DNA of 60,613 nt from Pseudomonadota bacterium (GTDB lineage: Bacteria; Pseudomonadota; Gammaproteobacteria; Chromatiales; Chromatiaceae): contig JBPOHE010000007.1 in NCBI GenBank assembly GCA_052035915.1, positions 1-60,613 of the forward strand, in the 5' to 3' direction. The translations under genes were made by a program, and so were the position numbers. The notes beneath the pieces were generated by a model. It ran no database searches, had not been told where the DNA came from, and worked only from the letters and a program-made list of their open reading frames with translations. Positions 11,985-55,064 of this stretch are shown one piece after another. Numbering within the stretch: the stretch's first letter is position 1; each line of letters starts with the position of its first letter.

Positions 11985-12040
11985 AAAAAACACAGTGTTG
12001 CCCGACATTTTATAGAAGATGTCGGGCACAGGTGCCCGAC
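11985..12040 (-). terminator. tandem hairpins plus T-run downstream of the two-gene operon
   Basis: On the minus strand, right after the TAG at 12041, come two hairpins. They are GTCGGGCAC-CT-GTGCCCGAC and TGCCCGACAT-cttctataaa-ATGTCGGGCA, followed by ACACTGTG-TTTTTT. Confidence 0.5.
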
Positions 12041-34847: not shown

Positions 34848-35060
34848 ATATCACCCTGGCCAGACCGGGTTCAATCTCTTAGCGCTCAGAACCTTTTCCC
34901 TTTATGATTGTAGTTATTGATAAATAGAATGAACGCATAACCTGACCCCGGGAGGGGTACAGGGAAACCGAACAAATCCAGACCCGGTTGTTTTCCGCCG
35001 CTCTTTGGCGTGAAGGGTTTGGCCACCAGAGCGACCACCTATAATAGGAGGAGCCTTTTC

Positions 35061-39337: not shown

Positions 39338-39790
39338 ATGTTTGGTTTCAAGGCCGCCGAATCCTATCAAAGCGAGCATTGCCTGTTGAAGAATGTGGGT
39401 GTCGCCTCATTCAACAAACAGCACCTCCGTCTCGCCAGTTATGCCGTGGAGTTCAACCAGATCGCCGAACAGCTCAAAGGCCGATCGCCGCGGCCCGAGG
39501 AATGGAAACAGATCGACGCCCTGTTCAGTCGCATCTCCATCTTCGTGGCGACGCACTTTCGCGAAGAAGAAGACATGATGGAAACCCATGCCTACCCAGG
39601 GTTTCCCGAACATAAACGCCAGCATGACCGATTCGTCGAAGAATTGGCGCGGATACAATCCCAAATCAACAACAGGAACGCGGATTTCAGGGGCCGCCTG
39701 GGCTCCCTGTTATGGGATTGGCTATACAAACATATCAACGAGACGGACTATCAGTATCGGGAATTCTTTCGCGAGAAAGGCGTTTCCTGA
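39338..39790 (+). CDS. bacteriohemerythrin-like protein
   Basis: Start trimmed to MFGFKAAESYQ. It has HFREEEDMME, FPEHKRQHDRFVEEL and WLYKHINETDYQY, the hemerythrin H/E/D iron-ligand motifs. Confidence 0.8.
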   Translation: MFGFKAAESYQSEHCLLKNVGVASFNKQHLRLASYAVEFNQIAEQLKGRSPRPEEWKQIDALFSRISIFVATHFREEEDMMETHAYPGFPEHKRQHDRFVEELARIQSQINNRNADFRGRLGSLLWDWLYKHINETDYQYREFFREKGVS

Positions 39791-39796
39791 TCCCGG

Positions 39797-40144
39797 GTGG
39801 ATGGAGTTCGACGGACGATGAAGATCGGCAACCGGCTCGGCATCGGCGTTATGGTCTGTCTTTTGGCGACCGCCCAGATGGAAGCAGGAGCCCCGGCAAG
39901 CGCGGCCTCCACCCAGGAGGTATTGAGCCCCTCCCCTGGCGAGATCTCGCTTCAGTCAGGCTCCCTGCCCTCATCGCCACCCACGACCGGTCTGCCGAGT
40001 GAACGGGGACCAGGTGTCAATCCTCCCAAGACCCTGACCAGCTTTTTTCTCATCGGCATCGTGCTCAACCTGTTGCTGGTGATCCTGGTGGGATCCTGGG
40101 CCTACAAACGTCTTCGCAAACCTCGAAGGCCGAACAATCCGTGA
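39797..40144 (+). CDS. small exported/anchored Pro/Ser-rich protein
   Basis: It has a signal-like segment (MKIGNRLGIGVMVCLLATAQMEA, alternative start 39818) and a C-terminal TM helix (FFLIGIVLNLLLVILVGSWAY). It has a 4-nt overlap with the SCO gene. Confidence 0.5.
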   Translation: MDGVRRTMKIGNRLGIGVMVCLLATAQMEAGAPASAASTQEVLSPSPGEISLQSGSLPSSPPTTGLPSERGPGVNPPKTLTSFFLIGIVLNLLLVILVGSWAYKRLRKPRRPNNP

Positions 40145-40776
40145 AACCAACGACGCTTCCGATCGGTACCCTGGCCGGGTTTCTACTCTGGGTTGGATTG
40201 CTGGGAGCCGCCCTGTTCTGGTGGAGTTCGGTAAGCCGACCCATCTCTCCTGAATTGAAACAGGTGCTGCGTAGCCAACCCCGGCTCTTGCAAGGCTTCT
40301 CCCTGGTTGATCAATACCAAAGACCCTTTACCGATGCCAATCTGCGGGGGAAATGGACCTTCCTGTTTTTCGGCTACACCTATTGTCCGGATATCTGCCC
40401 CACCACCCTCGGGACGCTCAAACAGAGCCTCGATCTGTTGCGTAAGACGCCCCAGGACGCGGACGATCTCCAGGTAGCCTTCGTATCCGTGGATCCGGAG
40501 CGCGACCGCACCGATGTATTGCGGAACTACATGGCCTATTTCGATAAAACCTTTATCGGTCTCACCGGACAACGCCAACAGATAGACAATCTGGTGGCCC
40601 AGACGGGGGCGGGATATATCAAGGAAGCGGAACAGACGCCAGGGAATTATTTGATCAGTCACAGCTCTTCGCTGTTTCTCATCAACCCGACCGGACAGCT
40701 GGTGGCGGTTTTCCCGCCACCACTCTATCCGGACTCGATCGCTTCACTCTACCGGGAGCTACGGGCCCATTATTGA
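40141..40776 (+). CDS. SCO1/SenC-family copper chaperone
   Basis: Thioredoxin-like fold with FGYTYCPDICPTTL (CxxxCP) and a downstream H in ISHSSSLFLI. Confidence 0.85.
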   Translation: MKPTTLPIGTLAGFLLWVGLLGAALFWWSSVSRPISPELKQVLRSQPRLLQGFSLVDQYQRPFTDANLRGKWTFLFFGYTYCPDICPTTLGTLKQSLDLLRKTPQDADDLQVAFVSVDPERDRTDVLRNYMAYFDKTFIGLTGQRQQIDNLVAQTGAGYIKEAEQTPGNYLISHSSSLFLINPTGQLVAVFPPPLYPDSIASLYRELRAHY

Positions 40777-40797
40777 TTCGCGCCCGGACTGATACTC

Positions 40798-41262
40798 TCA
40801 GTGGTGCCTGTGCTCGTGAGAATCTTCAGCACCTTTGCGGACTTCCACCATGAGGGGGATCGGGCGGCCCTCCTTGAACTCCAACTCCAGCGGGACAGTA
40901 TCACCCGCGACCAGGGCCTTTTGGGGCCGCATCAACATAAAATGATTACCACCCGGCTCGAACACCACCGTTTCGCCTGGGGGGATACGGATCTCATCCA
41001 GATGGAACATCTGTGCCATGTCATTCTGGATCCTTGTCCCATGCAACATGACATGACCAAAGAGCGGGCTGCTGGCACCGGTCAATATCCGCATGCCCTG
41101 ACCGGTATTCTGTATCTTCATATAAGCGGCCAGGGCCTCTGCTGTTGGGGGAGCTTCGCGTATCCATGGGTCCTGGATCCGAAGCGCGGCCTCTTCGGCC
41201 AGGAGCGGCGTCAGACTGGCCGCCATGACGATTCCAGCCAGAGCCCGAACCAAGGTGTTCAT
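40798..41262 (-). CDS. periplasmic copper chaperone PCu(A)C (DUF461)
   Basis: Signal peptide present. Met/His copper motifs in GHVMLHG...MAQMFH...GGNHFMLM, with a His-rich tail. Confidence 0.8.
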   Translation of the reverse strand: MNTLVRALAGIVMAASLTPLLAEEAALRIQDPWIREAPPTAEALAAYMKIQNTGQGMRILTGASSPLFGHVMLHGTRIQNDMAQMFHLDEIRIPPGETVVFEPGGNHFMLMRPQKALVAGDTVPLELEFKEGRPIPLMVEVRKGAEDSHEHRHH

Positions 41263-41408
41263 CTATTCATCTCCTGTTTTCATTGCCGCGGCAAAGCGGT
41301 TTCGCTATCACACAAACACAGCCAGAGGTTCGCCCAAACCTTCAACAAGGGTTTTTCTTTCTGGCCACCAGAAGCCTCTTGGATGGCGGCTACGACGAGA
41401 GAAGGGTT

Positions 41409-41825
41409 ATGGACAAGATAAGTCTGCTTCCACCACTCCAGGCGACGCTGAATATCCTGGCCACCGCACTCATGATCGCCGCCTATTATGCCATTCGCCG
41501 CAACCACCCATCCGCTCATCGGCTAGGCATGATCGGCGCCTTGATTACCTCGATCCTCTTCCTCGGCTCCTATCTCATCTATCATCATGAAGTCGGCTAT
41601 GTGCCCTTCACCGGTCAAGGGATCATGCGTCCTCTCTATTTCACTATTCTGTTCACCCATATCGCCACCGCCGCGGCCATCGTCCCCTTGGTGCTCATCA
41701 CCCTGTTTCACGCCCTGCGGGGACATACCCAGCAACATCGACGGATCGCCGCCTGGACCTTGCCGCTGTGGTTGTATACCTCCATCACCGGCGTCATGGT
41801 CTATATCCTGGTGTTTCGGCTTTAG
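41409..41825 (+). CDS. DUF420 membrane protein
   Basis: Start trimmed to MDKISLLPPLQATLNILATALMIAAYYAIRR. Four TM helices and HRRIAAWTLPLWLYTSITGVMVY match the DUF420 pattern, often found near haem-copper oxidase genes. Confidence 0.7.
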   Translation: MDKISLLPPLQATLNILATALMIAAYYAIRRNHPSAHRLGMIGALITSILFLGSYLIYHHEVGYVPFTGQGIMRPLYFTILFTHIATAAAIVPLVLITLFHALRGHTQQHRRIAAWTLPLWLYTSITGVMVYILVFRL

Positions 41826-42503: not shown

Positions 42504-43886
42504 TCAGTTTCCGGATTTTCCAGGCCACATCGCCTTGAAGCAGATGATGAGAAACAGCAGACCGCCGATGATGGCAATGAGGCCGCCAAGCCCCATCAAT
42601 CCCATGCCGAGGGTCTCCTGCAAGGTATGCAGCACCTGGGCGCTACCGGCGGTTTTGCGCTGTACCCCATAGCCGCCCGACCAGGCCAGACCGAGCACAT
42701 GGAGCAACTGCCCACTGCCGTAAATGATAGGCTGCCAGCGCACCATCCAGCCCTCCGGGCGGCGAAACCCAAGCCGCGGGAGCAGATGATAGGTCACCCC
42801 CATATAGGCCAGGGTGACGCTGACGATGGACCCATGGTAGTGGGCAGGCACCGTGACATTGGCGCCACTGATCAAGAAACCGATGATCCCGCCGGCGCCG
42901 AAGAGGATGATGGAAAACCAGAGCGCGTTGCGTTCCGGTGCCTGTTCCACTGGCGAACGCCCCGCCCGCGCCAGGGCCCAAAGAATGGCCAGTCCTATCG
43001 GCAGACTGGAGAGACCACCGCCGTACTGCATGAGCCAGGTGAGCCCAAGCATGTGGTAGGCCGAACCGATCTCGTACCTCAGGTACAGGGGCAGGATCAG
43101 GAGCACGGGCGCCGCGCCCAGGCCCAGTATCAGGATGGCGACCCGCGGGCTCAGCGGTGGTCGGGCCTGGGAGACCCAGGCCAGCCACAACCAGGCGACC
43201 AACATCAACTGGGTATGGGTGAACTGAATGGCATGGCCGCCACCCCAGAAAAGGACCTCGTAATATTGGGCACCGATCAAGGAGGACGGAGTCCCCTTAT
43301 AGGAGCCCGCCAAGGCCAGCAGGGCGATCAAAGCGGCGACTTGTCCGGTGATCAGGCCAAACCCCAGCGTCTTCTCTCCCGGACCAGCCATTGCCATGGA
43401 AGAGCGGCTGAACAGGGAATGCAGCACCAGGATCAGGAAACCAAGACCGAACAACCCGAGTCCGACGAAAAAGACCGGTGCCTGCAACACCGGCACATAG
43501 TTGTTCATCAAGGGACCACCGGCCCCGACGAATGGCGAGATCGAAATCACCCCGGCCCCGGCCACGGCCAGATAGAGGGCCCCACGACCGCAGGCCCGGC
43601 AGCGGTCGTTCAGGTTCAGACTCCACAACACCCCCGCAAAGGCCAGGAACCACACCAGTACGGTCAGATCCACATGCACCACCAAGGCGGTATGGAAAAA
43701 ATCCACCCAGGGGATGAGATCCTGAATCTTGGGTGTCCGTGACAAGACGATGAGAATAGTGAACACACCGCCGACCACCAGGGAGCCCAGGGCCAGCCAC
43801 AGCCAACCTATGGCCAGGGAACGAGGCTCCCCGGTGGGAACGCGGAGCACGAAGGCCCCATCAATGGCATCTGTTTGTTGGTTCAT
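42504..43886 (-). CDS. divergent haem-copper-oxidase subunit-I-like membrane protein (460 aa), no cognate subunit II
   Basis: About 12 TM helices. Candidate ligand histidines lie in FHTALVVHVDLTVLVWF, GGGHAIQFTHTQL and VPAHYHGSIV (an H-x-H as in HCO helix X). ATGA overlap with the upstream gene. Confidence 0.65.
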   Translation of the reverse strand: MNQQTDAIDGAFVLRVPTGEPRSLAIGWLWLALGSLVVGGVFTILIVLSRTPKIQDLIPWVDFFHTALVVHVDLTVLVWFLAFAGVLWSLNLNDRCRACGRGALYLAVAGAGVISISPFVGAGGPLMNNYVPVLQAPVFFVGLGLFGLGFLILVLHSLFSRSSMAMAGPGEKTLGFGLITGQVAALIALLALAGSYKGTPSSLIGAQYYEVLFWGGGHAIQFTHTQLMLVAWLWLAWVSQARPPLSPRVAILILGLGAAPVLLILPLYLRYEIGSAYHMLGLTWLMQYGGGLSSLPIGLAILWALARAGRSPVEQAPERNALWFSIILFGAGGIIGFLISGANVTVPAHYHGSIVSVTLAYMGVTYHLLPRLGFRRPEGWMVRWQPIIYGSGQLLHVLGLAWSGGYGVQRKTAGSAQVLHTLQETLGMGLMGLGGLIAIIGGLLFLIICFKAMWPGKSGN

Positions 43887-44383
43887 CGGAACAAGAATCC
43901 GTTTTCTGGGTTGAAGTCAATGACCAGGAGTTTTCCCACGAGCAGATCGGCCTGGTGTTCGGCGCTGTGGGTGAAGCCCTCGACCCGGCTGTTGTCGTTC
44001 ATCCGCACTTGAAAGGAATGCCGGCCCGCCGCTACCCGCAGGCTGCGAAAGATATCCACCGAGCCATCCTCGAACAATCCGGGTGACTTGGCAACCACCC
44101 GCAACAGGGGTTTCCCATCCATGAATAGCTCGACCTGAATGGGGGAGCGGGCGCGAGGACAATCGGTCGGTTTGCGCATGTTCGGCGGTAGTTTCGCCAA
44201 CTCCTCCGCCGTCAGGGTGCGACAGGGTTCCCGGGGCTGACCCGCATGGCCGAAGGCAAGGGTCACCTGCGCCTGGTCTCCTTCGAGATGGCGATAGGGC
44301 GGTGCGACGGAGAAATACCCCACCACGGCCATAAAGATGAAGTAATTCAGCGCCTGCAAGGGATAACGCCACCAACTAGACAT
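43883..44383 (-). CDS. hypothetical membrane-anchored protein (166 aa)
   Basis: Start trimmed to MSSWWRYPLQALNYFIFMAVVGYF (one TM helix). The rest is predicted beta-rich. It overlaps both neighbours (8 nt and 4 nt). Confidence 0.55.
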   Translation of the reverse strand: MSSWWRYPLQALNYFIFMAVVGYFSVAPPYRHLEGDQAQVTLAFGHAGQPREPCRTLTAEELAKLPPNMRKPTDCPRARSPIQVELFMDGKPLLRVVAKSPGLFEDGSVDIFRSLRVAAGRHSFQVRMNDNSRVEGFTHSAEHQADLLVGKLLVIDFNPENGFLFR

Positions 44384-45995
44384 GAGACTCTCCCTGGCGC
44401 TCCGGCGATGGCTCCTGGGCCTTGAGTTCGCGCAATGAGTCGCGGAAGGCATCGAGTTCGCGTTTGAGCCAAGCCCCATCGGACTCGGACGCCCCCTCCA
44501 TCCGCCAACGCCGCGGATCGACACGGTTGCGGAGCACAGGTTTGCGCATACCGGCGAGGCGCTTGCCCAACCATCTGTTGCCGAACCGGAAATAGCAATC
44601 CGCCGCGCGGCAACCGGAGACCAGAACGCCATCGGCCCCTTTCTTCAGCCCGTATTCGATCAGGGATGGGGGGACCATGCCGCTGCAAAAGAGGCTGAGG
44701 CCAACCGTGTCCGGGCCGTTGAAGCGGGTAACATCGAAGCCGTGTTCGCAGCCCAGGATCAGGATCCGAATCTCGCCCTGCAATCCGGCCAGGGCGGCGT
44801 CGGTTTGCCGGCGGATGTCGTGCAGCGGGAACTGAGGCATGTCAATGCCGGTTTTCAAGACCTGATCGGCGCGGCGTAGCGGATTGGATGACGGACAGGA
44901 CCCCATGCAGATACCGCAGGCGGCACATAACTGAGGGGATACCACCACCTCGTACTCCCAATGGGAGTTGTCGGTACGTTTTTGCAGCGTGATGGCGTCG
45001 AAGGGGCAGTCATCGAAGCACTGACCGCAGCCATTGCAGTGGTTGAGATCGACCACCGCCGCCGGCCCGGTGCGCTTGCGCGGCAGCCAGGGCATGAGCA
45101 TGAGCAACAGGGTGACGCTCGTGGTCAGGAGCCAGGTCTCCCCGGCCGTCCAATAATCCAGCAAGGGATAGACATTGAGATAGAACCAGTCCAGATGCAG
45201 GGTGGCGGGAACCCGGCTGAGGTCCGCCGGTTCGTGACTCACCGCCGGCATGACCAATGACAAGGCCAGCAAGCCGATGAAGCTGCCGATCGCCAGCCCC
45301 CGGGGCGGGTTGATGCTGACATGGGAGAGCCGCCGTACATGAAACCAGAGCATGAACACCAGGAACATGGGTTGTCCCAGGAGATGGAGAAAACCCATGA
45401 GGATGAAAAAGCGATCGTTCAGGTGGCCTTCGAGAAAATTGCGTGTCATGGCCTCGGGAAAGATGGGCACCGCGTCCATGAGCCGGGAGGAACCGATGGC
45501 GACATACTGGGCCAGCAGATCCCACACCAGCCAGTAGCCGGTGATCCCCAGCAGGATGATCATCCACAGGGTCGGGATGCCGGTAAACCAGGAGTACCAG
45601 CGGAAACCGCGATAACGGTCGAGGGCGAACTCGCGGAACAGATGCAGCAGGATGGTGACCACGGCGGCGTCCGAGGCATAGCGATGCAGGCTGCGCATCA
45701 CCCCCCCGGCGTACCACTGTCCATGGGTGATCTGCTGCACCGAGGCGTAGGCGCCATGGATGCTGCTATTGAAAAAGACGAAAAGATAGAGGCCACTGAT
45801 CAGCACCACCCACAAAAAGAAAAAGGTCAGGGTTCCCAGGTGATAGAGGGGGTTCCAGGCGGGGGTGAAGGAAAGATTGAACCAGTCTTCGAGGGCCAGA
45901 TAGCCCCGCTTGATGAGATTGAAGGGTTTCAAGGCGGTATCCTCGCGGGGTACGGCTGGGGGGATCGCGGTCGTCTTGTTATCGCACAACCTCAT
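44376..45995 (-). CDS. fusion protein: cytochrome b (bc-type N-terminal) + 2x[4Fe-4S] ferredoxin + MvhD/FlpD-like hydrogenase iron-sulfur domain
   Basis: The N-terminus is WNPLYHLGTLTFFFLW...MRSLHRYASDAAVVTILLHLFREF (bis-His haem-b helices). The middle is NHCNGCGQCFDDCPF and CAACGICMGSCPS. The C-terminus is ILILGCEHG...LFCSGMV...GADGVLVSGCRAADCYFRFGN (MvhD family pattern). Confidence 0.75.
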   Translation of the reverse strand: MRLCDNKTTAIPPAVPREDTALKPFNLIKRGYLALEDWFNLSFTPAWNPLYHLGTLTFFFLWVVLISGLYLFVFFNSSIHGAYASVQQITHGQWYAGGVMRSLHRYASDAAVVTILLHLFREFALDRYRGFRWYSWFTGIPTLWMIILLGITGYWLVWDLLAQYVAIGSSRLMDAVPIFPEAMTRNFLEGHLNDRFFILMGFLHLLGQPMFLVFMLWFHVRRLSHVSINPPRGLAIGSFIGLLALSLVMPAVSHEPADLSRVPATLHLDWFYLNVYPLLDYWTAGETWLLTTSVTLLLMLMPWLPRKRTGPAAVVDLNHCNGCGQCFDDCPFDAITLQKRTDNSHWEYEVVVSPQLCAACGICMGSCPSSNPLRRADQVLKTGIDMPQFPLHDIRRQTDAALAGLQGEIRILILGCEHGFDVTRFNGPDTVGLSLFCSGMVPPSLIEYGLKKGADGVLVSGCRAADCYFRFGNRWLGKRLAGMRKPVLRNRVDPRRWRMEGASESDGAWLKRELDAFRDSLRELKAQEPSPERQGESHV

Positions 45996-46016
45996 CCCGA
46001 GGCGACTTGATGGGTA

Positions 46017-46850
46017 TCAATGCCCGGGCAGTCCTGGGCCGCGACGCCATTCCCGGACGACAAACCAAGCCGCCAAAATAAGGATGAAGCCGCCAATGAT
46101 CAGGCCAATGAACAGCGACAGATCCACATAATAGGCATCGCGGCTGGGATCGTAGGTGGTGCAGAAGAAACGGATGCGATTGAGAAGACTAGCCAGGAAG
46201 GGCTGGCCCGGCTTGGGCTGCCCAAGCACTAATTCCTTGAGCGGTTCCACCAACAGCGGGGTCTCGAACACCTCGCCATAGACCTGACGATAGATGCGCC
46301 CATCGGCGTCGATGACCGTGGCCTGGATGATATGGTCGAAGCCGCGCGGGGAATCCACATAGGTGAATCCCAGCTCCCGCATCAGAGCCTCCGCCGTGGC
46401 GCGATCAGCGCTCAAAAGCAGCCAATCCGCCCCGGCGATGCCCTGGTTCCTGGCGAACTGGCGCATGGATTCCGGGCTGTCGTGCAGGCTGTCGAAGCCC
46501 AGGGTGGCGACACGAAAACTCTCTTGGCCCAGGGCCTCCCTGGCTTTGGCGACTACTTTGGCCAGATGCTGGGTGGTCAGGGGACAGACATGGTAGCAAC
46601 TGGTATAGACCAAGCTGAGCACCAGGGGCTTGCCCTTCAGGCTTGACAAGGAAAGTCGGTCTTCCGCACCTGTAGTGAAGACGTAGTCCCCCAAGGATCG
46701 GCCGATCGCCTGCTGGCTAGCTTCCAGGGCTCGCTTGCTATCGAATTTGGTGGTGGTTTCCTGATGTCCGGTCCTCGACCAAGCCGGGAAAAGTATCGCG
46801 AGCCAGGCGAAGATCAGCGCGCAGGCGAGGAGAGGGAGCCGATACCTCAT
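46017..46850 (-). CDS. SCO1/SenC-family protein with C-terminal TM anchor
   Basis: Start trimmed to MRYRLPLLACALIFAWLAILF. CxxxCP is present in VYTSCYHVCPLTT. A C-terminal helix is LFIGLIIGGFILILAAWFVV. Confidence 0.8.
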   Translation of the reverse strand: MRYRLPLLACALIFAWLAILFPAWSRTGHQETTTKFDSKRALEASQQAIGRSLGDYVFTTGAEDRLSLSSLKGKPLVLSLVYTSCYHVCPLTTQHLAKVVAKAREALGQESFRVATLGFDSLHDSPESMRQFARNQGIAGADWLLLSADRATAEALMRELGFTYVDSPRGFDHIIQATVIDADGRIYRQVYGEVFETPLLVEPLKELVLGQPKPGQPFLASLLNRIRFFCTTYDPSRDAYYVDLSLFIGLIIGGFILILAAWFVVREWRRGPGLPGH

Positions 46851-46879: not shown

Positions 46880-47737
46880 TCAAGACACCAGCCAGGCGTC
46901 CAGGACAGCGCTTGTCAATAGACAGGTCAGTTGCACCAGGGAAGCAAAAAAACAACTCATCGCGGTCTTGGCGGTGGGATCCCTGACCAGTTGGAGATTT
47001 TTCTGTAGAAAATAGCCCCCACCGATCAGGGCGCCGGCCAGATAGATCCAACCGAGACCAAAGAAAAAGGGAAGAATGGAAAATGTCACCAGGACCAGGG
47101 TGTTGAGCAATACGGCCCGCGCTGCCCGCGCATTGCCCACCACCACCGGCAACATCGGAACCCCCGCAGCGACATAATCGTCGCGCTGGGCAATGGCCAG
47201 ACTCCAGAAATGGGAGGGGGTCCAGAAAAACAACACGATGGCGAGAAGGATAGGTACCGGACTGAGACTCGGGTCAACCGCCGCAGCCCCGGCGAGTACC
47301 GCAAAACTGCCGGATGCCCCACCGATGACGATGTTGAGCCAAGTCCGGCGTTTCAGCCAGACTGTATAGACGATCGCATAGAAAAACGCCCCGAGAAAGA
47401 TATAGAGGGCGGCCACGCCGTTCAGCAGCAGTGCGGCACCCAAAACTCCCATCGCCAGCAGCGCCATGATCAACATCAACCAGAAGGGCGTATGGGAGAA
47501 ACTCCCGGTCACGAAGGGGCGGTTGTGGGTCCGCCGCATCCGACTATCGATATCCAACTCATAATATTGGTTGAAGGCACCGGCACTGGCGGCCGCCATG
47601 AGTACCGTCAGGGCCAGGACAAGGGTGTGCCAGCCGCCAAGAGGTTCTCCCGGAGTCACCACCATGGCCGCAATCGCGGTAAAGGCCATGATGATACCGA
47701 TACGGAGTTTGAACAGATTGGTGAGCTGCTTGAGCAT
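46880..47737 (-). CDS. ctaB: protohaem IX farnesyltransferase (haem O synthase)
   Basis: Start trimmed to MLKQLTNLFKLRIGIIMAF. UbiA-family motifs are present: NQYYELDIDSRMRRTHNRPFVTG and a later Asp-rich loop. Confidence 0.85.
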   Translation of the reverse strand: MLKQLTNLFKLRIGIIMAFTAIAAMVVTPGEPLGGWHTLVLALTVLMAAASAGAFNQYYELDIDSRMRRTHNRPFVTGSFSHTPFWLMLIMALLAMGVLGAALLLNGVAALYIFLGAFFYAIVYTVWLKRRTWLNIVIGGASGSFAVLAGAAAVDPSLSPVPILLAIVLFFWTPSHFWSLAIAQRDDYVAAGVPMLPVVVGNARAARAVLLNTLVLVTFSILPFFFGLGWIYLAGALIGGGYFLQKNLQLVRDPTAKTAMSCFFASLVQLTCLLTSAVLDAWLVS

Positions 47738-47858: not shown

Positions 47859-49592
47859 CTATTTGAGTGGCCAGACGGCCGCCAGATAGTTCCAGTTGAT
47901 GAAATAATACAGCACAAAGGACACCAGCAAGACCATGGCGAGGGCAAAAGTACCAGGCGCTTCGAAACCCGCCGAGCCGTGCTGTTCCACCACCGGCCGG
48001 CTGGCCATGGGCAGTTGCTCCGGCTGCTCGAAGGTATAGACAGAAGCCGCAAGCGGCTTGCCGAAGCTCTGCAGCAACCCCGCGGAAGGCTCCAGCTTCT
48101 TGCCGAACACCAGCGAACCCACGGTGACGATGAGGTACATGGCGCCGCCGACCATCGCCAGGAGGGCACCGATTCCGGCGATACCCATCAGCACATAGGC
48201 GGTCCCCGGATACTTGAAGCCCAAAGGATTGCCCGCAAAGCCCATGTCCCAGTGGCGACGGGCCACTCCCAGGGTACCCGCGCCCATGAGGAACAAGGAC
48301 ACGATAGTCATGCCTAGACCGAAGACATAGGGCTGCCATTTCGCCACCGTGGGCAGGATCATCTGGCGACGGAACAAAACCGGGATCAGCAGGTAAGTCA
48401 GGGCCATGAAGGCCAGGGTGGTGCCTATAACGACCGTGGCATGGAAGTGGCCCGGTACATAGATGGTGTTGTGGATGATGATGTTGATCTGCTCGGTACC
48501 CATCACCACACCTGAGATGCCACCCAGGAAACCAAAACCTACCAGCGAGATGAACATGCCCGAGAACACCGGATTATCCCAGGGGGCCTTGCGCAACCAC
48601 TCGAACATACCCTTGGTGAATCCCTTGTGTCGCTGGGCCACCTCGATGGCGCCAGGGACGGTCAGGCCGTGGATCATGCTGGCCAGCACCGCCAGATACA
48701 TGGCATAGCTGGTGTTGAATACCTTCCACTCGGAGCTGATACCCGGATCCACCAGGATGTGGTGGGCGCAGGCCAGTTGCAGGAAGAGGATGTAGAGCAG
48801 ATAGGCCGAACGGCTGACCTTCTCCGACATGGGCCGGGCGCCGAAGACCACACCCGCGATCAGATACCACACGGCCACATGGGCGGCGACGTTGATCTGT
48901 TGGGAGGAGTGCCCGAGGCCCCACCAGATGACCCGGTACATCAGGGCGTCGATGTGGCCGATGTAGCCGATGGACCAGAGGAAGGTCGGGATCAGAATGA
49001 TCGCCCCCGAGGCGATGGTGAAGACGGCGATGATAGCCGCGGTGATGGCGCCGAAGGTCACAAGGGGCACCGAGCCCTGATAGGTGTTCTCATCCTTGGC
49101 GATGACCAGGGTGCCGAAGAACACAAACACAGCGATTAGCGCACCCACGGCGAACAAAATCAACCCGAGATAGAAGGTTGGCTGGGCGGGCATGGGCACA
49201 TAGGAAGTCATCATCACGCTGGAACCGCCCTGGAAGATGGTGACGAGGGTGGTGATGGAGCCTATTACCATGAGCGCGAAGCCGAGCCAAGCCCAGCGTG
49301 GTGTAGCCAGGCGGCAGCGCAACAGGGTCGAGGAGGCGAAATAGAGGATGGCTATTTCGAAAAAGATGATCCAGAAGATGAGCGCGCCGATGCCATGGGC
49401 GGTCAGCACCATATAGAAGGAGTCCGCCGGCAAAAGATGCACCGCCGGCCATCTGGTCAGGGCGACCAGCACCCCGAGCACACCAGAGATCAAGAGGCTC
49501 ACCGCGGCGGCGACCGCGTTGACCTTCATCAGGCTCTCGGCGGACTTATGGAAATACAGCCCTGAGGATGGGCAAACCCGAAACTCTGCCAT
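47859..49592 (-). CDS. haem-copper oxidase subunit I (B/ba3-like or NOR-like family)
   Basis: 577 aa, about 13 TM helices, with HFHATVVIGT (H-x-H helix X) and a CuB region IWWGLGHSSQQINVAAH. The Tyr found 4 residues after the CuB His in A/B-type oxidases (GHPxVY) is replaced by Q. Confidence 0.8.
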   Translation of the reverse strand: MAEFRVCPSSGLYFHKSAESLMKVNAVAAAVSLLISGVLGVLVALTRWPAVHLLPADSFYMVLTAHGIGALIFWIIFFEIAILYFASSTLLRCRLATPRWAWLGFALMVIGSITTLVTIFQGGSSVMMTSYVPMPAQPTFYLGLILFAVGALIAVFVFFGTLVIAKDENTYQGSVPLVTFGAITAAIIAVFTIASGAIILIPTFLWSIGYIGHIDALMYRVIWWGLGHSSQQINVAAHVAVWYLIAGVVFGARPMSEKVSRSAYLLYILFLQLACAHHILVDPGISSEWKVFNTSYAMYLAVLASMIHGLTVPGAIEVAQRHKGFTKGMFEWLRKAPWDNPVFSGMFISLVGFGFLGGISGVVMGTEQINIIIHNTIYVPGHFHATVVIGTTLAFMALTYLLIPVLFRRQMILPTVAKWQPYVFGLGMTIVSLFLMGAGTLGVARRHWDMGFAGNPLGFKYPGTAYVLMGIAGIGALLAMVGGAMYLIVTVGSLVFGKKLEPSAGLLQSFGKPLAASVYTFEQPEQLPMASRPVVEQHGSAGFEAPGTFALAMVLLVSFVLYYFINWNYLAAVWPLK

Positions 49593-49598
49593 AGATGC

Positions 49599-50135
49599 TT
49601 ACTCCTTGACGTAGATCTTGCCCAGCATGGTGTGGTGCAAGATGCCGCAATATTCGTTACAGACGATGGTGTACTCGCCCGCCTGGTCCGGGGTCACCGT
49701 CATGACCATCTCGTAGCCCGGCAGGACCTGCACATTGATGTTGACGGGTTGCAGGGAGAAGCCGTGCTGCCAATCCATCGACGAAAGATGAAGCCGGTAG
49801 CTCTTGTTCTTTTTCAGTTCAAGCATCGGATACCATTGCCAGAGCCGGCCCAACATATAGACATCGCTGTCCGCGGGTGGAGCGACCACGGGTAACCCCG
49901 CCTCATCTCTCACCTTATGGTCCTTGACCATGGCCTCCACCTTGGCCAGGTGTTTGGCCGGTGTGGTCTGATAGGCCTCGTTGGACAGATTCTGCTTACC
50001 GTAAAGGTGCCAGTAGGGCATCATGAGGAACATGATCAGGCACCAGACTACCGCCAACAGGATCCAGACGATTTCGGTCTTGCCGACCGGTTCTTTCCAC
50101 CAGATGCGTTCGGCCGGTGGTGTAAAGCTGCTCAT
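49599..50135 (-). CDS. haem-copper oxidase subunit II with CuA site
   Basis: 178 aa with one N-terminal TM helix and a cupredoxin domain carrying CNEYCGILHHTM (C-x-E-x-C-G-x-x-H-x-x-M). Confidence 0.85.
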   Translation of the reverse strand: MSSFTPPAERIWWKEPVGKTEIVWILLAVVWCLIMFLMMPYWHLYGKQNLSNEAYQTTPAKHLAKVEAMVKDHKVRDEAGLPVVAPPADSDVYMLGRLWQWYPMLELKKNKSYRLHLSSMDWQHGFSLQPVNINVQVLPGYEMVMTVTPDQAGEYTIVCNEYCGILHHTMLGKIYVKE

Positions 50136-50156
50136 CGGTATTTCCCCCTCTCAGAC

Positions 50157-50345
50157 TTATGGCGTAACGGGCAGGGTGACGATCTCCATGATCCCCCACA
50201 GGATGTAGAACACCGTCGGCATCACCACACCGATAAAAAGGAGCAAAAAAGGGTTATCTATCAACTTCTGCATAGCAGGAATCTTTTCCCGCTTTTCTGG
50301 GTTTGTTCTGGATGCAACATTTGGAGTCGGTTCTCCCATAGACAT
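50157..50345 (-). CDS. small single-helix oxidase-associated protein (subunit IIa-like)
   Basis: The hydrophobic core is FLLLFIGVVMPTVFYILWGIMEIV. The likely true start is the internal ATG at 50273 (MQKLIDNPF). Assigned by position upstream of subunit II. Confidence 0.5.
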   Translation of the reverse strand: MSMGEPTPNVASRTNPEKREKIPAMQKLIDNPFLLLFIGVVMPTVFYILWGIMEIVTLPVTP

Positions 50346-50649
50346 ATCTCCTCAAAGATGGCGAAACACACAACACGGATTGGCGAAGCCCGAAGGCAGG
50401 CGAAGCTGCTTGGTTCGTTCAGACGAGGGCCGCGATGCCTTCGGATGTTGCCTTCCGATACAACCAGACAGATCGTTGTACCCCCTCAACATCCGGATGG
50501 AACAACCCTCAGATACGCGAATGAGTGTTGATTTACCCGCCACCCCGAACCTTGATCTCGATCAAGAGTTGAAAAATATTCCCTTGCGGTAAGCGGATGA
50601 GGCATTATGGGGAGTTTGATCCCTTCTCCAGTTCACGAGATTTCAGGCT

Positions 50650-51702
50650 ATGTCCGTGACCGAAACTGCTGCAAATAGAACGGTTGCCCTCTGGTTGTTG
50701 ATCTGCTGTGCCGCCATCTTCGCCATGGTGGTGCTGGGAGGGGTGACGCGGTTGACGGGCTCCGGGCTCTCCATCGTACGCTGGGAACCCATCACCGGGG
50801 TGCTGCCGCCCCTGAACGAAACCGCCTGGGAACAGGTATTCCAGCTCTATCAGCAATCGCCGGAATATCGGCTGAAGAACCGGGGGATGTCGCTCGAGGG
50901 CTTCAAAACCATCTTCTGGTTCGAATACGCCCACCGCCTGCTCGGCCGGCTGATTGGGGTCATCTTTCTCGTCCCCCTGATCTTTTTCGTGATCCGCAAG
51001 CAGCTGAACCGCTCGCTCATCCCCAAGCTGGTCCTGATGTTCGTGCTCGGTGGGCTGCAGGGCCTGCTCGGCTGGTATATGGTGATGAGCGGACTGGTCA
51101 ATGATCCCCACGTGAGCCAATACCGCCTGACCGCCCACCTCGGGCTCGCCCTTCTCATTTATTCTTATATGTTCTGGGTGGCGTTGGATCTGTTGTTTCC
51201 CGACACCGGTCACATCCAAAAAAGGGGGGCAACGGCAGGCCTGATCGTCTTGCTGGTGTTTCTGACCGCCCTTTCCGGTGGTTTCGTCGCCGGCACCCGG
51301 GCGGGTCTGGCCTACAACACCTTCCCCTTGATGGACGGCCAATGGGTTCCTGGGGGAATGTTCACCCTGACTCCCCTGTGGAGCAACTTGTTCGAGAATG
51401 TCACCACGGTGCAGTTCGACCACCGCCTGCTGGCCACCCTGCTGTTCTTGGTCATCCCGGCGTTCTGGTGGCGCGCCCGCCGACAGCCGCTCGCACCCCG
51501 GGTCCAGATCGGGCTCCATGTCCTGCTCATGACCCTATTCCTACAGCTCGGGCTGGGCATCTCCACGCTGCTGCTCCGGGTGCCGGTGGCCCTGGGAACG
51601 GCGCATCAGGGCGGTGCCGTGTTGTTGCTGACCGCGGCCCTGTTCGTCTGGCATCGAATGCGTCGGGAGCCTCTCCAGCAGCCGATCTCAGGATTTGTCT
51701 AG
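50650..51702 (+). CDS. ctaA: haem A synthase (COX15/CtaA)
   Basis: 350 aa and 8 TM helices, with LGGVTRLTGSGLSIVRWEP, EYAHRLLGR and VQFDHRLLA (conserved His pairs). Confidence 0.85.
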   Translation: MSVTETAANRTVALWLLICCAAIFAMVVLGGVTRLTGSGLSIVRWEPITGVLPPLNETAWEQVFQLYQQSPEYRLKNRGMSLEGFKTIFWFEYAHRLLGRLIGVIFLVPLIFFVIRKQLNRSLIPKLVLMFVLGGLQGLLGWYMVMSGLVNDPHVSQYRLTAHLGLALLIYSYMFWVALDLLFPDTGHIQKRGATAGLIVLLVFLTALSGGFVAGTRAGLAYNTFPLMDGQWVPGGMFTLTPLWSNLFENVTTVQFDHRLLATLLFLVIPAFWWRARRQPLAPRVQIGLHVLLMTLFLQLGLGISTLLLRVPVALGTAHQGGAVLLLTAALFVWHRMRREPLQQPISGFV

Positions 51703-52906: not shown

Positions 52907-54688
52907 TCACAACAACCCGGCGTAGTCGGCTATCCCCGGATTGCCTTTTACCCCCACGAGTTTCGGGCTGTTGACTTTGGCCAGCTTCACCTGGCCTTTG
53001 AGGCGGAGATAATCGGCGACCACATCCCACACCGGACGCCCGGGCGCTTGGGAGCCCACGGTGGCCCAGCCGGAGACGATATAGTTTTTCCCCGCCTCGA
53101 CCGGGGTACCGTCGTCCAGGGTCATCTGACTGATGCGCTGGCCCATCTCCCGGCTGGGATCACAGACATAATCCAGCCCCCCGACGCGCACCATATCCCC
53201 ACCCTGCTGGTAATAGGGGTCCGGATTGAACAGGTTGTCGCAGACATCTTCGAGAATGGTCTTGATGTCGGCGCCGGTCATCTCGCGTCGATAGGTTTCC
53301 GGGTAGGTGATACAGGTCTGGTCCAATACCTGTTCCATGGTGATCGCCTGTCCCGGCAGGATGCTGGTACCCCAGCGGAAGCCGGGCGAGAGGGCGATCT
53401 GAGCGTCATTGACCTCCCGCAGGGCATCGCAGATGACCTGGTCGAAAGTGCCGTTGAAGTTCCCCCGTCGATAGAGGGTGGCCTCGGTAACCGCCAGTTT
53501 CTCCTCCAGCCGATCCTTGTAAGGCGCACGCACCTTATCGATATAGGCCTGCATCTCCGGGTCGGCGGGCAGGAGGTTGGAGAACACCGGCAACAGCCGG
53601 TAGCGGAAATCCCGTACCTGTCCGCCCTTCACCTCCAAGTCCATGACGCCGAGAAACTTGCCGTTGGAACCGGCATTGGTCACCAGGGTACGCCCGTTGC
53701 GGTTCTTGATGAGGCTCGGCGCCGGCACACCGTCATGGGTATGGCCGCCGAAGATGACGTCGATACCGCTCACCCGCTCCGCCATCTTGAGGTCGACATC
53801 CATGCCGTTGTGGGAAAGCACCACTATGACTTCGGGTTTTTCCTTCGCCTTGAGCTTGTCGACGACTTCCTGCATGTGCTTGTCTTCGATGCCGAAGGTC
53901 CAATCCGGGATAAAGCGCTGCGGGTTGGCGATGGGGGTATAGGGAAAGGCCTGGCCAATGACGGCCACGCGAACCCCGCCTACCTCCTTGATGGTATAGG
54001 GGCGGAAGGCCTGGCCGCTGTCGCCGTCGAAACCCGCGTATTTGGCGAATTTGTAATCGAAGAGGGCGTCCTCCTTGACCTTGATGTTCTGCGCCACGAA
54101 CTCGGCCTTGAGCTCGGCCAGGTTCTCCATGACCTCCTGGTCCAGATAGGTGAACTCCCAATGGCCGGTCATGACATCCACGCCCAGGAGGTTGCAGGCC
54201 CCTACCATGTCCTTACCCCGGGTCCAATAGGCGGTTCCCGATCCCTGCCAGGTATCGCCGCCGTCCAATAAGAGGGTATTGCCTGGGCCCCTGGCTTCCC
54301 GCAGGCGCTTCACCAGGGTCCGCAGATGGGCGAAGCCACCAACCCGACCATAGCGCTTGGCCGCCTCATCGAAATGGAGATAGGTGAAGGCATGGGCGTC
54401 GAGGCCACCGCCGGTCAGACCATAGTGTTTCAACAGGGCCTCGCCGACCAGATGCGGCGGTTTGCCCAGGGCGGTGCCAACGCCCAGGTTGACATTGGGT
54501 TCCCGGTAATAGACTGGATTCAGCTGGGCATGGGTATCAGTGATATGCAACAGGCTCAGATTACCGAATTTGGGGACATCATAGATGTCGGCCGCCTGGG
54601 TCTTGGCGGCAGCCAAGGACCTGGGCAGGATCCCCGCCGCCCCGGCCATGGCCATCAAGTGGAGAAACTCACGTCTGGAGATACTCAT
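52907..54688 (-). CDS. soxB: thiosulfohydrolase SoxB
   Basis: Start trimmed to MSISRREFLHLMAMAGAAG (twin-arginine signal). Dinuclear metallophosphoesterase motifs are present: LLHITDTHAQL, LDGGDTWQGSG, GHWEF, FGGHTHDG. It also has a 5'-nucleotidase-type C-terminal domain, and its length of about 593 aa is typical of SoxB. Confidence 0.85.
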   Translation of the reverse strand: MSISRREFLHLMAMAGAAGILPRSLAAAKTQAADIYDVPKFGNLSLLHITDTHAQLNPVYYREPNVNLGVGTALGKPPHLVGEALLKHYGLTGGGLDAHAFTYLHFDEAAKRYGRVGGFAHLRTLVKRLREARGPGNTLLLDGGDTWQGSGTAYWTRGKDMVGACNLLGVDVMTGHWEFTYLDQEVMENLAELKAEFVAQNIKVKEDALFDYKFAKYAGFDGDSGQAFRPYTIKEVGGVRVAVIGQAFPYTPIANPQRFIPDWTFGIEDKHMQEVVDKLKAKEKPEVIVVLSHNGMDVDLKMAERVSGIDVIFGGHTHDGVPAPSLIKNRNGRTLVTNAGSNGKFLGVMDLEVKGGQVRDFRYRLLPVFSNLLPADPEMQAYIDKVRAPYKDRLEEKLAVTEATLYRRGNFNGTFDQVICDALREVNDAQIALSPGFRWGTSILPGQAITMEQVLDQTCITYPETYRREMTGADIKTILEDVCDNLFNPDPYYQQGGDMVRVGGLDYVCDPSREMGQRISQMTLDDGTPVEAGKNYIVSGWATVGSQAPGRPVWDVVADYLRLKGQVKLAKVNSPKLVGVKGNPGIADYAGLL

Positions 54689-55064
54689 CTTCTTATCGCT
54701 CCTCATAACCATACCGGGGCTTGGTGACGGGTTATCGGGCTGTCGCCGCTTGGAAGCCTGGCTCCTCCTGCCTTCCTGGTGACAACAAGCCGAACCCGGA
54801 TATCGCCAAGTATAAGATGGCACCAGCGGGACAACATCCCAGGTCACCAAGGGTTTTCCCGGATATTCCCTCCTCTCCCCTTTCGCCACGCCGTCCTGCC
54901 CCTGTCCCCGGCCACTGGCTAAGCCGGGGAATGTGTGGAAGGATCCGGGGCGCGCCTGCTGTGAAAGTCCCTGGCCCAACCGGCGGCGGAAGCGGTTCTC
55001 TCGAACCCGGCCACCACAACAGCCAGGCGGCAACGAAACCCAAGGTCAATGAGGAGAGAAGGTC

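What the first reader, a model, noticed from the sequence alone, without database searches (positions are those of the whole stretch)
47859..50345. CuA-containing haem-copper oxidase whose subunit I lacks the helix-VI cross-link tyrosine (GHSSQQ instead of GHPxVY)
Subunit II has a complete CuA motif, CNEYCGILHHTM. Subunit I reads WWGLGHSSQQINV at the CuB histidine, with Gln where A- and B-family oxidases carry the His-cross-linked Tyr. The operon continues with ctaB and a SenC/SCO gene. An HCO I/II pair followed by senC has been discussed for the proposed sNOR class of NO reductases in nitrifiers and sulfur oxidisers. This enzyme may therefore be an NO reductase or an atypical oxidase with the Tyr supplied from another helix, as in C-family enzymes.
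Basis: partly seen in the sequence, partly recalled or inferred. Interest (0 to 1): 0.5.

Follow-up and report, generated by a model that had tools for sequence, protein, structure and literature searches.

The report
eNOR-type nitric oxide reductase operon
The tyrosine-less haem-copper enzyme is real, but it belongs to the already described eNOR family of nitric oxide reductases rather than the sNOR class, so it is an ordinary new member sitting in a well-conserved operon of a sulfur-oxidising gammaproteobacterium.

Summary
Window 47859-50345 (minus strand) encodes a small one-helix protein, a subunit II with a full CuA motif (CNEYCGILHHTM), and a 577-aa subunit I. Subunit I keeps all six metal-ligand histidines but reads GH228SSQQ232. 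Gln232 aligns with the cross-linked Tyr237 of Thermus ba3.

The sNOR suggestion is not supported. Published diagnostics give Asn at this position for sNOR and bNOR, and Gln for eNOR. The protein groups with other GHxxQQ proteins from Halobacteria, Thermus plasmids, Thermomicrobium and a Rhodothermales MAG, apart from ba3-type oxidases. It keeps the ba3-like K-channel serine that sNOR is reported to lack. The gene order (II, I, haem O synthase, SCO, cytochrome b/Fe-S protein, with ctaA divergent) matches the published Ferrigenium eNOR operon.

No compensating Tyr sits at the C-family helix-VII position (Leu or Ile in 318 of 318 relatives).

Context fits NO reduction:
- nirS lies within 10 kb in 16 of 80 related loci.
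- Rrf2 regulators flank the Thermus and Rhodothermales copies.
- An FNR/DNR-type box precedes the operon here and in 47 of 69 relatives.

Most likely function is a cytochrome c-dependent NO reductase that uses haem A and may conserve energy. This is a new member of a known kind. The conserved accessory genes remain uncharacterised.

The parts
50157..50345 (-). Small single-helix membrane protein (60-62 aa), probably a subunit IIa-like third subunit
   Evidence: ORF. No Pfam hit. Found directly upstream of subunit II in 73 of 80 related loci. Its position mirrors the small subunits of ba3 and of bNOR (PMC3475470).
49599..50135 (-). Subunit II: one N-terminal helix plus a cupredoxin domain with a complete CuA site (H124, C159, C163, H167, M170)
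   Evidence: Pfam COX2/Cupredoxin. Aligns to the Thermus ba3 CuA domain at E about 1e-15. Motif confirmed. C-x3-C-x3-H-x2-M is the commonest pattern among the 78 subunit II homologues from related loci (top 12 motif variants shown).
47859..49592 (-). Subunit I (577 aa, 13 predicted helices), eNOR type. All six His ligands are kept and Tyr is replaced by Gln232 (codon 48897-48899). K-channel-like residues are Y243, S256, S305, H308 and T311.
46880..47737 (-). ctaB/cyoE haem O synthase (start codon uncertain; 285-305 aa)
   Evidence: Pfam UbiA at E 3.9e-52. Same position in 70 of 80 related loci. Gene calls.
46017..46850 (-). SCO1/SenC copper chaperone (277 aa), presumed to assemble CuA
   Evidence: Pfam SCO1-SenC at E 9.2e-11. 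Conserved in 70 of 80 loci.
44376..45995 (-). Fusion protein: bc1/b6-type cytochrome b (six hydrophobic segments) plus two [4Fe-4S] motifs plus an MvhD/FlpD-like domain. The soluble domains are predicted to be cytoplasmic. Function unknown.
   Evidence: Pfam Cytochrome_B, Fer4 and FlpD. NCBIfam similarity to the HdrA2 C-terminus and to ExtP/ExtQ. Conserved in 60 of 80 loci. Also present in the Rhodothermales locus and the Defluviimonas plasmid. The Ferrigenium preprint describes similar cytochrome b/Fe-S genes in its eNOR operon.
43883..44383 (-). 166-aa protein of unknown function with one N-terminal helix
   Evidence: No Pfam or NCBIfam hit. Present in 59 of 80 loci. Fused to the C-terminus of the cytochrome b/Fe-S protein in a Rhodothermales MAG.
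42504..43886 (-). Second, degenerate COX1-like protein (460 aa, 12 helices). It keeps the three haem histidines (H71, H349, H351) and one CuB-type His (GGGH218). It lacks the HH pair and has Phe222 at the tyrosine position.
   Evidence: Pfam COX1 at 42.9 bits. Alignment. Homologue at 40% identity or more in 47 of 80 loci. AF2 model with pLDDT 81 and pTM 0.86. Foldseek matches to HCO subunit I with TM 0.70-0.76.
50650..51702 (+). ctaA/COX15 haem A synthase, divergently transcribed
   Evidence: Pfam COX15-CtaA at E 1.4e-108. Within 10 kb in 25 of 80 loci. A fused ctaA-ctaB gene lies next to the Thermomicrobium homologue.
50552..50565 (.). Perfect FNR/DNR-type palindrome TTGATCTCGATCAA in the divergent promoter region between ctaA and the operon
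   Evidence: Three perfect sites in the window against 0.02 expected. A box with at most one mismatch lies within 400 bp upstream of the operon in 47 of 69 related loci. The background rate is 0.12 per kb.
46007..46020 (.). Second perfect FNR/DNR-type palindrome, just upstream of the cytochrome b/Fe-S gene
   Evidence: A box at the same place in 12 of 49 related loci.
40141..41825 (.). Accessory assembly genes next to the operon: a second SCO (40141-40776, +), PCuAC (40798-41262, -) and DUF420 (41283-41825, +)
   Evidence: Pfam. Gene calls. Partly conserved beside the operon.

Best explanation
The locus encodes an eNOR-family haem-copper nitric oxide reductase. Subunit II takes electrons from a periplasmic carrier (cytochrome c or similar) through CuA. 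Subunit I passes them through a low-spin haem to a high-spin haem and a three-histidine metal site, where two NO are reduced to N2O. The redox-active His-Tyr cofactor needed for four-electron O2 reduction is absent, with Gln232 in its place.

Protons probably arrive from the cytoplasm through a ba3-like K-type channel (Y243, S256, S305, H308, T311). That would make the reaction electrogenic.

The linked ctaA and ctaB genes imply haem A-type cofactors. SCO and PCuAC would load CuA. An FNR/DNR-type site implies induction at low O2 or by NO.

Shown here: the sequence features, family grouping, synteny and regulatory motif. Inferred: the catalytic activity, which rests on the purified Rhodothermus marinus eNOR. 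Also inferred are the metal identity, the haem type, the proton uptake and the in vivo electron donor.
For: Sequence features:
- Gln at the Tyr237 position, with all six His ligands kept.
- Gln is the published eNOR diagnostic. Asn is the sNOR/bNOR diagnostic (PMC8756737 Table A4 and Fig 6 legend; PMC3475470).
- Complete CuA site.
- K-channel residues, including the S309 equivalent, are invariant. PMC11214002 says eNOR keeps this and sNOR lacks it.

Family grouping:
- An NJ tree places the protein in a GHxxQQ clade with a haloarchaeal protein, a Thermus plasmid protein and the Thermomicrobium protein (bootstrap 64).
- That clade is sister to two of the four Tyr-retaining GHxxQY sequences (the other two fall elsewhere, with weak support) and lies apart from ba3 oxidases.
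- 119 of 119 distant relatives, including a Rhodothermales MAG at 51% identity, have GHxxQQ. Seven of them show the His/Lys low-spin haem variant that PMC11214002 reports for some eNORs.

Operon and context:
- The gene order matches the Ferrigenium eNOR operon (II, I, haem O synthase, sco1, cytochrome b/Fe-S genes). It is conserved in 60-78 of 80 species.
- ctaA is linked, as reported for many eNOR operons.
- nirS lies within 10 kb in 16 of 80 loci, with NirN/F-like genes in 9 more.
- The Thermus copy sits beside nirS, cytochrome c552 and an Rrf2 regulator. The Rhodothermales copy sits beside Rrf2.
- FNR/DNR boxes are conserved upstream.

Biochemistry from the literature: purified R. marinus eNOR reduces NO and does not reduce O2 (PMC11214002).
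Against: - No sequence of the biochemically characterised R. marinus enzyme could be retrieved. The nearest proxy is a Rhodothermales MAG protein at 51% identity.
- Clade support in my quick NJ tree is only moderate (64), and the curated family HMMs of Murali et al. were not available.
- Only one eNOR has been assayed, with a low turnover of 0.68 NO per second.
- The window itself carries no nir, nor or nos gene.
- FNR control and dependence on O2-requiring haem A synthesis would equally suit a micro-oxic oxidase.
- A tyrosine specific to the Gln-type clade exists on helix VIII (Y296). I could not measure its distance to the active site.
Confidence: 0.8

Rival explanations
1. It is an sNOR (NorSY-SenC type), the class proposed for ammonia oxidisers.
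For: A CuA subunit II and a Tyr-less subunit I with a senC/SCO gene in the same operon. sNOR is also a B-family-derived putative NO reductase.
Against: - sNOR and bNOR carry Asn at the tyrosine position. This protein and all 318 relatives checked carry Gln.
- sNOR is reported to lack the S309-equivalent serine. Here S305 is invariant.
- ctaB sits between subunit I and senC, unlike the norS-norY-senC arrangement.
- The relatives found are in Halobacteria, Thermus, Chloroflexota and Rhodothermales. These are lineages reported for eNOR.
Confidence: 0.03
2. It is an atypical, possibly high-affinity O2 reductase. The redox-active tyrosine would be supplied from elsewhere, for example Tyr296 on helix VIII, which is specific to the clade. 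Alternatively the enzyme works without one.
For: - It derives from B-family oxidases and keeps a K-type channel.
- ctaA needs O2, and the operon carries an FNR-type site typical of micro-oxic oxidases.
- Y296 and N293 are invariant in the Gln-type clade and absent from Tyr-retaining relatives.
- An oxidase role has been argued for the analogous sNOR of Nitrosomonas europaea (PMC6967387).
Against: - R. marinus eNOR showed no O2 reduction with several donors.
- No Tyr sits at the C-family position, which is Leu or Ile in 318 of 318.
- The invariant Tyr267 on helix VII is also present in Tyr-retaining relatives, so it is not compensatory.
- Murali et al. report no migrated tyrosine in models of these families.
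- Linkage to nirS and Rrf2 points to NO.
Confidence: 0.08
3. The enzyme acts on NO but mainly for detoxification or signalling rather than respiration. Alternatively it turns over another small oxidant together with the linked cytochrome b/Fe-S and COX1-like proteins.
For: - The window has no nir or nos genes.
- Hemerythrin-domain genes (a domain also found in NO-stress proteins such as DnrN/NorA, own knowledge) lie nearby.
- Conserved accessory redox proteins of unknown role are present.
Against: Many relatives do have nirS adjacent. eNOR is expressed under denitrifying conditions in Ferrigenium and Accumulibacter according to the literature.
Confidence: 0.07

Closest known systems
eNOR family of haem-copper NO reductases (Rhodothermus marinus eNOR; Magnetospirillum magnetotacticum 'cytochrome a1-like' haemoprotein; Ferrigenium straubiae eNOR operon)
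   Same: - Gln in place of the cross-link Tyr, a CuA subunit II and a ba3-like K-channel.
- Linkage to ctaA/ctaB, consistent with haem A.
- Gene order II, I, haem O synthase, SCO, cytochrome b/Fe-S.
- Occurrence in Proteobacteria, Halobacteria, Chloroflexota and Thermus.
   Different: Only about 51% identical to the nearest Rhodothermales homologue found. No biochemical data exist for this gammaproteobacterial sulfur-oxidiser clade. The operon here also carries a degenerate second COX1-like gene that is absent from the Thermus and Thermomicrobium loci.
sNOR (NorSY-SenC of ammonia oxidisers)
   Same: A B-family-derived, Tyr-less subunit I, a CuA subunit II and a senC in the operon. It is also a proposed NO reductase.
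   Different: sNOR has Asn rather than Gln at the tyrosine position. It lacks the S309-equivalent serine and has a distinct channel. It has no ctaB between subunit I and senC, and it is a separate clade in the literature.
bNOR / qCuANOR of Bacillus azotoformans
   Same: A CuA-containing, electrogenic NO reductase derived from the B-family. It has a small third subunit and SCO in the cluster, and a K-channel like that of ba3.
   Different: It has Asn at the tyrosine position and is restricted to Bacillales. It also accepts menaquinol.
Thermus thermophilus ba3 cytochrome c oxidase (B-family)
   Same: Closest solved structure (E about 1e-41). It shares 13 helices, the same six His ligands, the CuA subunit II, a small subunit IIa and a single K-type channel.
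   Different: ba3 has the His233-Tyr237 cross-link (GHPIVY) and reduces O2. The window protein has GHSSQQ and groups in a separate clade.

Membership tests
eNOR | Haem-copper oxidoreductase subunit I with the six canonical histidine ligands | tested here: met
   Pfam COX1 at E 9.7e-60. H66, H228, H277, H278, H382 and H384 align to ba3 H72, H233, H282, H283, H384 and H386.
eNOR | Cross-linked active-site Tyr replaced by Gln (diagnostic substitution; PMC8756737 Table A4 and Fig 6) | tested here: met
   Gln232 aligns to Tyr237. It is invariant in the 80 species loci, in 120 close clusters and in 119 distant relatives.
eNOR | CuA-binding cupredoxin subunit II encoded next to subunit I | tested here: met
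   CNEYCGILHHTM plus H124. Aligns to the ba3 CuA domain.
eNOR | Phylogenetic placement with recognised eNOR lineages, separate from B-family oxidases | tested here: met
   The NJ tree groups it with Natrarchaeobius, the Thermus plasmid and Thermomicrobium GHxxQQ proteins (bootstrap 64). That group is sister to two of the four Tyr-retaining GHxxQY sequences, and ba3 types are separate. Caveats: support is moderate, the R. marinus sequence is missing, and the curated HMMs were not available.
eNOR | Conserved K-channel-like polar residues resembling ba3, including the S309 equivalent | tested here: met
   Y243, S256, S305, H308 and T311 are invariant in the 82 proteobacterial-clade sequences. S305 and H308 are also kept in distant members.
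eNOR | Haem A-type (As) cofactors; operons often carry ctaA | tested here: inconclusive
   ctaB lies inside the operon and ctaA is divergent. They are conserved in 70 and 25 of 80 loci respectively. The haems themselves cannot be determined from sequence.
eNOR | Catalyses NO reduction to N2O and does not reduce O2 | not testable with these tools
   Known only for the R. marinus enzyme (PMC11214002).
sNOR | Asn at the cross-link Tyr position (same active site as bNOR) | tested here: not met
   Gln232, never Asn, in any of 318 relatives. Diagnostics.
sNOR | S309-equivalent serine missing, with a conserved Glu elsewhere forming a different channel | tested here: not met
   S305 is present and invariant. 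The alternative Glu was not examined.
sNOR | Clusters with NorY of Nitrosomonas or Nitrosococcus | not tested
   No sNOR reference sequence could be obtained. The plasmid hits inspected were all Tyr-containing B-type oxidases.
B-family (ba3) O2 reductase | His-Tyr cross-link motif GHPxVY on helix VI | tested here: not met
   GHSSQQ. All 17 B-family sequences in the comparison have Tyr.
C-family-style oxidase (migrated Tyr) | Tyr on helix VII six residues before the HH pair (own knowledge of the cbb3 structure: Tyr251, His257/258) | tested here: not met
   Position -6 is Leu (199) or Ile (119) in 318 of 318 sequences.
cNOR/qNOR | Glu at the His+4 position with further conserved glutamates, and no CuA subunit | tested here: not met
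   Gln at His+4 and a CuA subunit present. PDB NOR chains are not among the sequence hits.

The most novel reading that the evidence does not exclude
In this proteobacterial clade the eNOR core may be only part of a larger, undescribed respiratory module. That module would include three conserved co-operonic proteins:
- the cytochrome b / 2x[4Fe-4S] / MvhD-like fusion;
- its 166-aa partner, which is fused to it in a Rhodothermales MAG;
- a second HCO-like protein that keeps the haem ligands but has lost the CuB/FeB histidine pair.

Together they could wire quinol or cytoplasmic electrons, for example from sulfur oxidation, to NO reduction, or serve as an assembly scaffold.
Probability: 0.2. 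Interest if true: 0.55.

Novelty: new member of a known kind. Interest (0 to 1): 0.22.

Why it matters
Annotation pipelines label these genes 'cbb3-type' or 'ba3-type cytochrome c oxidase subunit I'. Recognising the enzyme as eNOR therefore changes the predicted physiology. It would give a SoxB-carrying sulfur oxidiser, and relatives in at least 590 species genomes, a way to make N2O from NO, possibly while conserving energy. The enzyme family itself has already been described and assayed, so the gain is correct classification and ecological bookkeeping rather than a new mechanism. The open questions lie in the conserved accessory genes.

Tried and rejected
- **sNOR/bNOR reference sequences.** I looked for them by tblastn against plasmids. 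The Geobacillus, Deinococcus, Brevibacillus, Caballeronia, Methylobacterium, Variovorax, Ralstonia and Janthinobacterium hits all carry Tyr (GHPxVY or LHAIVY). They are B-type oxidases, so no sNOR sequence entered the tree.
- **The R. marinus eNOR sequence.** The profile search returned only a Rhodothermales MAG.
- **Supplementary data of PMC11214002.** They are not held, so the published active-site alignment could not be read.
- **AF2 model of subunit I.** Confidence was low (pLDDT 64) and no coordinates are returned. I could not measure whether Tyr296 or Tyr267 can reach His228, and the model was used only to count helices.
- **First tree attempt.** The Biopython bootstraps timed out. I replaced them with a numpy NJ tree using Kimura distances.
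- **nirS in the window.** None was found. Pfam scans of 30 further ORFs found no nir, nor or nos genes.
- **NCBIfam.** It has no model that reaches cut-off for subunit I.
Full report
**What is there.**
On the minus strand the window carries a tight gene row:
- a 62-aa one-helix protein (50157-50345);
- subunit II (49599-50135);
- subunit I (47859-49592);
- haem O synthase ctaB (46880-47737);
- SCO/SenC (46017-46850);
- a cytochrome b / 2x[4Fe-4S] / FlpD(MvhD)-like fusion (44376-45995);
- a 166-aa unknown protein (43883-44383);
- a second, degenerate COX1-like protein (42504-43886).

Haem A synthase ctaA (50650-51702) is transcribed divergently. A PCuAC, a second SCO and a DUF420 gene lie just beyond at 40141-41825. 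SoxB lies at 52907-55033 (TIGR04486, 887 bits), so the host is a sulfur oxidiser. The closest named relatives of subunit I are Sedimenticola, Thiogranum, Thiohalobacter, Chromatiaceae and Parabeggiatoa MAGs at 76-81% identity.

- Window 49626-49661(-) translates to CNEYCGILHHTM. The domain aligns with the Thermus ba3 CuA domain.
- Window 48897-48911(-) translates to HSSQQ.
- An ungapped phmmer alignment with Thermus ba3 subunit I (E about 1e-41) superimposes GHSSQQ on GHPIVY. His228 is therefore the CuB ligand His233, and Gln232 takes the place of the cross-linked Tyr237.
- The other ligands are intact: His66, His277/278 and His382/384. So are Trp224 and the propionate-binding Arg445/446.
- The substitution is fixed. 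It is GH[SP]SQQ in all 80 species-level relatives and in the 120 nearest clusters, apart from one GHSSKQ. It is GHxxQQ in 119 of 119 remote relatives.

**Which family.**
The literature gives simple diagnostics for the residue at the tyrosine position. It is Asn in sNOR and in bNOR/CuANOR. It is Gln in eNOR. In gNOR an Asp replaces a histidine ligand (PMC8756737 Table A4 and Fig 6 legend; PMC3475470). PMC11214002 states that sNOR shares the bNOR active site. Gln232 therefore points to eNOR, not sNOR. Independent lines agree.

(a) Motif classes and tree.
- A search of 1.8 billion cluster representatives returned full-length relatives in three main motif classes:
  - GHxxQQ: the window protein, a metagenomic protein at 52%, and a Natrarchaeobius protein at 40%.
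  - GHxxQY: archaeal proteins from Hodarchaeales and Thermoproteota that keep the Tyr.
  - GHPxVY: ba3-type oxidases.
- In an NJ tree the GHxxQQ proteins form one clade (bootstrap 64). It is sister to two of the four GHxxQY sequences and lies apart from the B-family. The other two GHxxQY sequences fall elsewhere with weak support.
- This matches the published remark that eNOR clusters with a Tyr-containing 'K' oxidase family.

(b) Annotated plasmid copies.
- Plasmids carry GHxxQQ homologues in Thermus thermophilus (44%), Thermomicrobium roseum (45%) and Defluviimonas (61%).
- The Thermus protein reads HFK at the low-spin haem site. This is the His/Lys ligation that PMC11214002 describes for some eNORs. 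Seven of the 119 remote relatives share it.
- PMC8756737 lists a Thermus, a Rhodothermus profundi and a Rhodocyclaceae sequence in its eNOR alignment.

(c) A profile search found a Rhodothermales MAG protein that is 51% identical over the full length.

(d) K-channel positions of ba3 map to invariant polar residues: Y248 to Y243, S261 to S256, S309 to S305, T312 to H308 and T315 to T311. PMC11214002 says eNOR keeps a ba3-like channel, whereas sNOR lacks the S309 serine.

(e) The gene order matches the Ferrigenium straubiae eNOR operon. [quoted passage not shown] The link to ctaA matches the statement that many eNOR operons carry a CtaA homologue.

**Is a tyrosine supplied from elsewhere?**
- In cbb3 oxidases the cross-linking Tyr lies six residues before the HH pair on helix VII (own knowledge of the P. 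stutzeri structure). That position is Leu or Ile in 318 of 318 family members.
- An invariant Tyr at -10 (Tyr267) is also present in the Tyr-retaining sister group. It is therefore not compensatory.
- Tyr296 and Asn293, at the start of helix VIII, are the only polar residues besides Gln232 that are invariant in the Gln-type clade yet absent from both sister groups.
- I could not measure how far Tyr296 lies from His228, because no coordinates are returned and the subunit I model was weak (pLDDT 64). This leaves a small residual chance of an unconventional oxidase.
- Against that, the R. marinus enzyme does not reduce O2. Murali et al. also report that they found no migrated tyrosine.

**Context supporting NO reduction.**
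- At least 590 species genomes encode a relative, and the 80 best were fetched.
- The row small-II-I-ctaB-SCO is present in 70-78 of them. The cytochrome b fusion is in 60, the 166-aa gene in 59, and the COX1-like gene in 47.
- A nirS orthologue (47-51% identity to Thermus NirS) lies within 10 kb in 16 loci. NirN/F-like genes lie there in 9 more.
- On the Thermus plasmid the genes sit beside nirS, cytochrome c552 and an Rrf2-family regulator. A Rhodothermales locus also has a divergent Rrf2 gene.
- In the window, a perfect FNR/DNR-type palindrome lies in the ctaA-operon intergenic region (50552-50565). Another lies before the cytochrome b gene (46007-46020). That makes three perfect sites in 60 kb against 0.02 expected.
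- A box with at most one mismatch lies within 400 bp upstream of the operon in 47 of 69 relatives, against a background of 0.12 per kb.
- The window itself has no nir, nor or nos genes. The source of NO for this organism is not visible here.

**Mechanism proposed.**
Electrons enter through CuA, pass to the low-spin haem, and reach the high-spin haem and three-His metal site, where 2 NO + 2 e- + 2 H+ give N2O + H2O. Without the His-Tyr cofactor the enzyme cannot deliver the fourth electron needed for O2 reduction. Protons probably come from the cytoplasm through the K-type channel, which would make the step electrogenic. The sequence features, family grouping, synteny and regulatory motif are shown. 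The activity, metal identity (Fe or Cu), haem type (As) and proton uptake are inferred from the family.

**Accessory genes (side finding).**
- *Cytochrome b fusion.* It has six hydrophobic segments by inspection, so the Fe-S and MvhD-like domains should be cytoplasmic. Its C-terminal part resembles the HdrA2 C-terminus. In a Rhodothermales MAG it is fused to the 166-aa protein. The pairing with eNOR therefore holds even at 51% subunit I identity.
- *Second COX1-like protein.*
  - It has an HCO subunit I fold (pLDDT 81; TM 0.70-0.76 to A-family and ba3 chains).
  - It keeps the three haem histidines and one CuB-type His.
  - It has lost the HH pair and has Phe at the tyrosine position.
  - It is absent from the Thermus, Thermomicrobium and Defluviimonas loci.
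  - It occurs alone, with no HCO genes on a short contig, in an Acidimicrobiia MAG.
- The roles of both proteins are unknown. The Ferrigenium preprint speculates about a supercomplex.

**Verdict.**
The finding is real and the NO-reductase reading is reasonable. The class is eNOR, which was predicted in 2008 and confirmed biochemically in 2024, and which has already been reported in Gammaproteobacteria. It is a new member of a known kind, and interest is low to modest.

Noticed in passing
window 42504-43886 (-): A second, degenerate haem-copper-oxidase-like protein (460 aa). The haem ligands and one CuB His are kept, the HH pair is lost, and Phe sits at the Tyr position. It is co-operonic in 47 of 80 relatives. 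The database search returned more than 6000 matches at E <= 1e-5 (these may include ordinary COX1 proteins), and the named top hits are annotated as cytochrome oxidase subunit I. It occurs alone on a short contig, with no HCO genes, in an Acidimicrobiia MAG. Function unknown.
   Followed up: partly
window 44376-45995 (-) and 43883-44383 (-); L101 6893-9022: A cytochrome b + 2x[4Fe-4S] + MvhD/FlpD-like fusion and a 166-aa unknown protein accompany eNOR in 59-60 of 80 loci. The two are fused into one 709-aa protein in a Rhodothermales MAG. This suggests a functional unit linked to eNOR.
   Followed up: partly
window 50552-50565, 46007-46020, 25682-25695: Three perfect TTGAT-N4-ATCAA (FNR/DNR-type) palindromes against 0.02 expected. 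Two lie in this operon's regulatory regions. The third lies at 25682-25695, between small unannotated ORFs, and was not examined.
   Followed up: partly
window 39119-39790 (+) and 35010-35504 (+): Two hemerythrin HHE-domain proteins near the operon. This domain occurs in NO-stress and iron-centre repair proteins such as DnrN/NorA (own knowledge). A hemerythrin gene also follows the operon on the Defluviimonas plasmid and in 8 of 80 loci.
   Followed up: no
window 40141-41825: A cluster of SCO, PCuAC and DUF420 genes beside the operon. They are probably copper and haem A assembly factors for the same enzyme.
   Followed up: no
window 52907-55033 (-): Thiosulfohydrolase SoxB (TIGR04486, 887 bits), separated from ctaA only by a methyltransferase gene. 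It marks the host as a thiosulfate or sulfur oxidiser. Flavocytochrome c sulfide dehydrogenase genes lie near the operon in a relative (L098).
   Followed up: no
proteins P0195, P0202, P0222: A distinct group of HCO subunit I homologues in which several metal ligands are replaced. The helix VI motif reads FHxxHY, the HH pair is YH, and the HxH motif is YxH. I could not assign them to a described family.
   Followed up: no
proteins P0129, P0132, P0135, P0149: Relatives of eNOR that retain the tyrosine (GHxxQY). The two that carry names are archaeal (Hodarchaeales and Thermoproteota). Two of the four are sister to the Gln-type clade in the tree. They are probably the O2-reducing lineage from which eNOR arose, perhaps the 'K family' named in a preprint.
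   Followed up: partly
window about 10000-14000 and 193-1242: A low-GC stretch (0.43-0.51 against about 0.61 elsewhere) containing two ORFs with no Pfam hit (12041-14102). A phage-type integrase lies at the window start. This may be a mobile island unrelated to the finding.
   Followed up: no
L087 (Thermus thermophilus plasmid pTF24b) 3796-11140: The Thermus eNOR-type genes are annotated as ba3-type oxidase. They sit between nirS/cytochrome c552 and an Rrf2 regulator. Their subunit I has Lys in place of the second low-spin haem histidine (HFK).
   Followed up: partly
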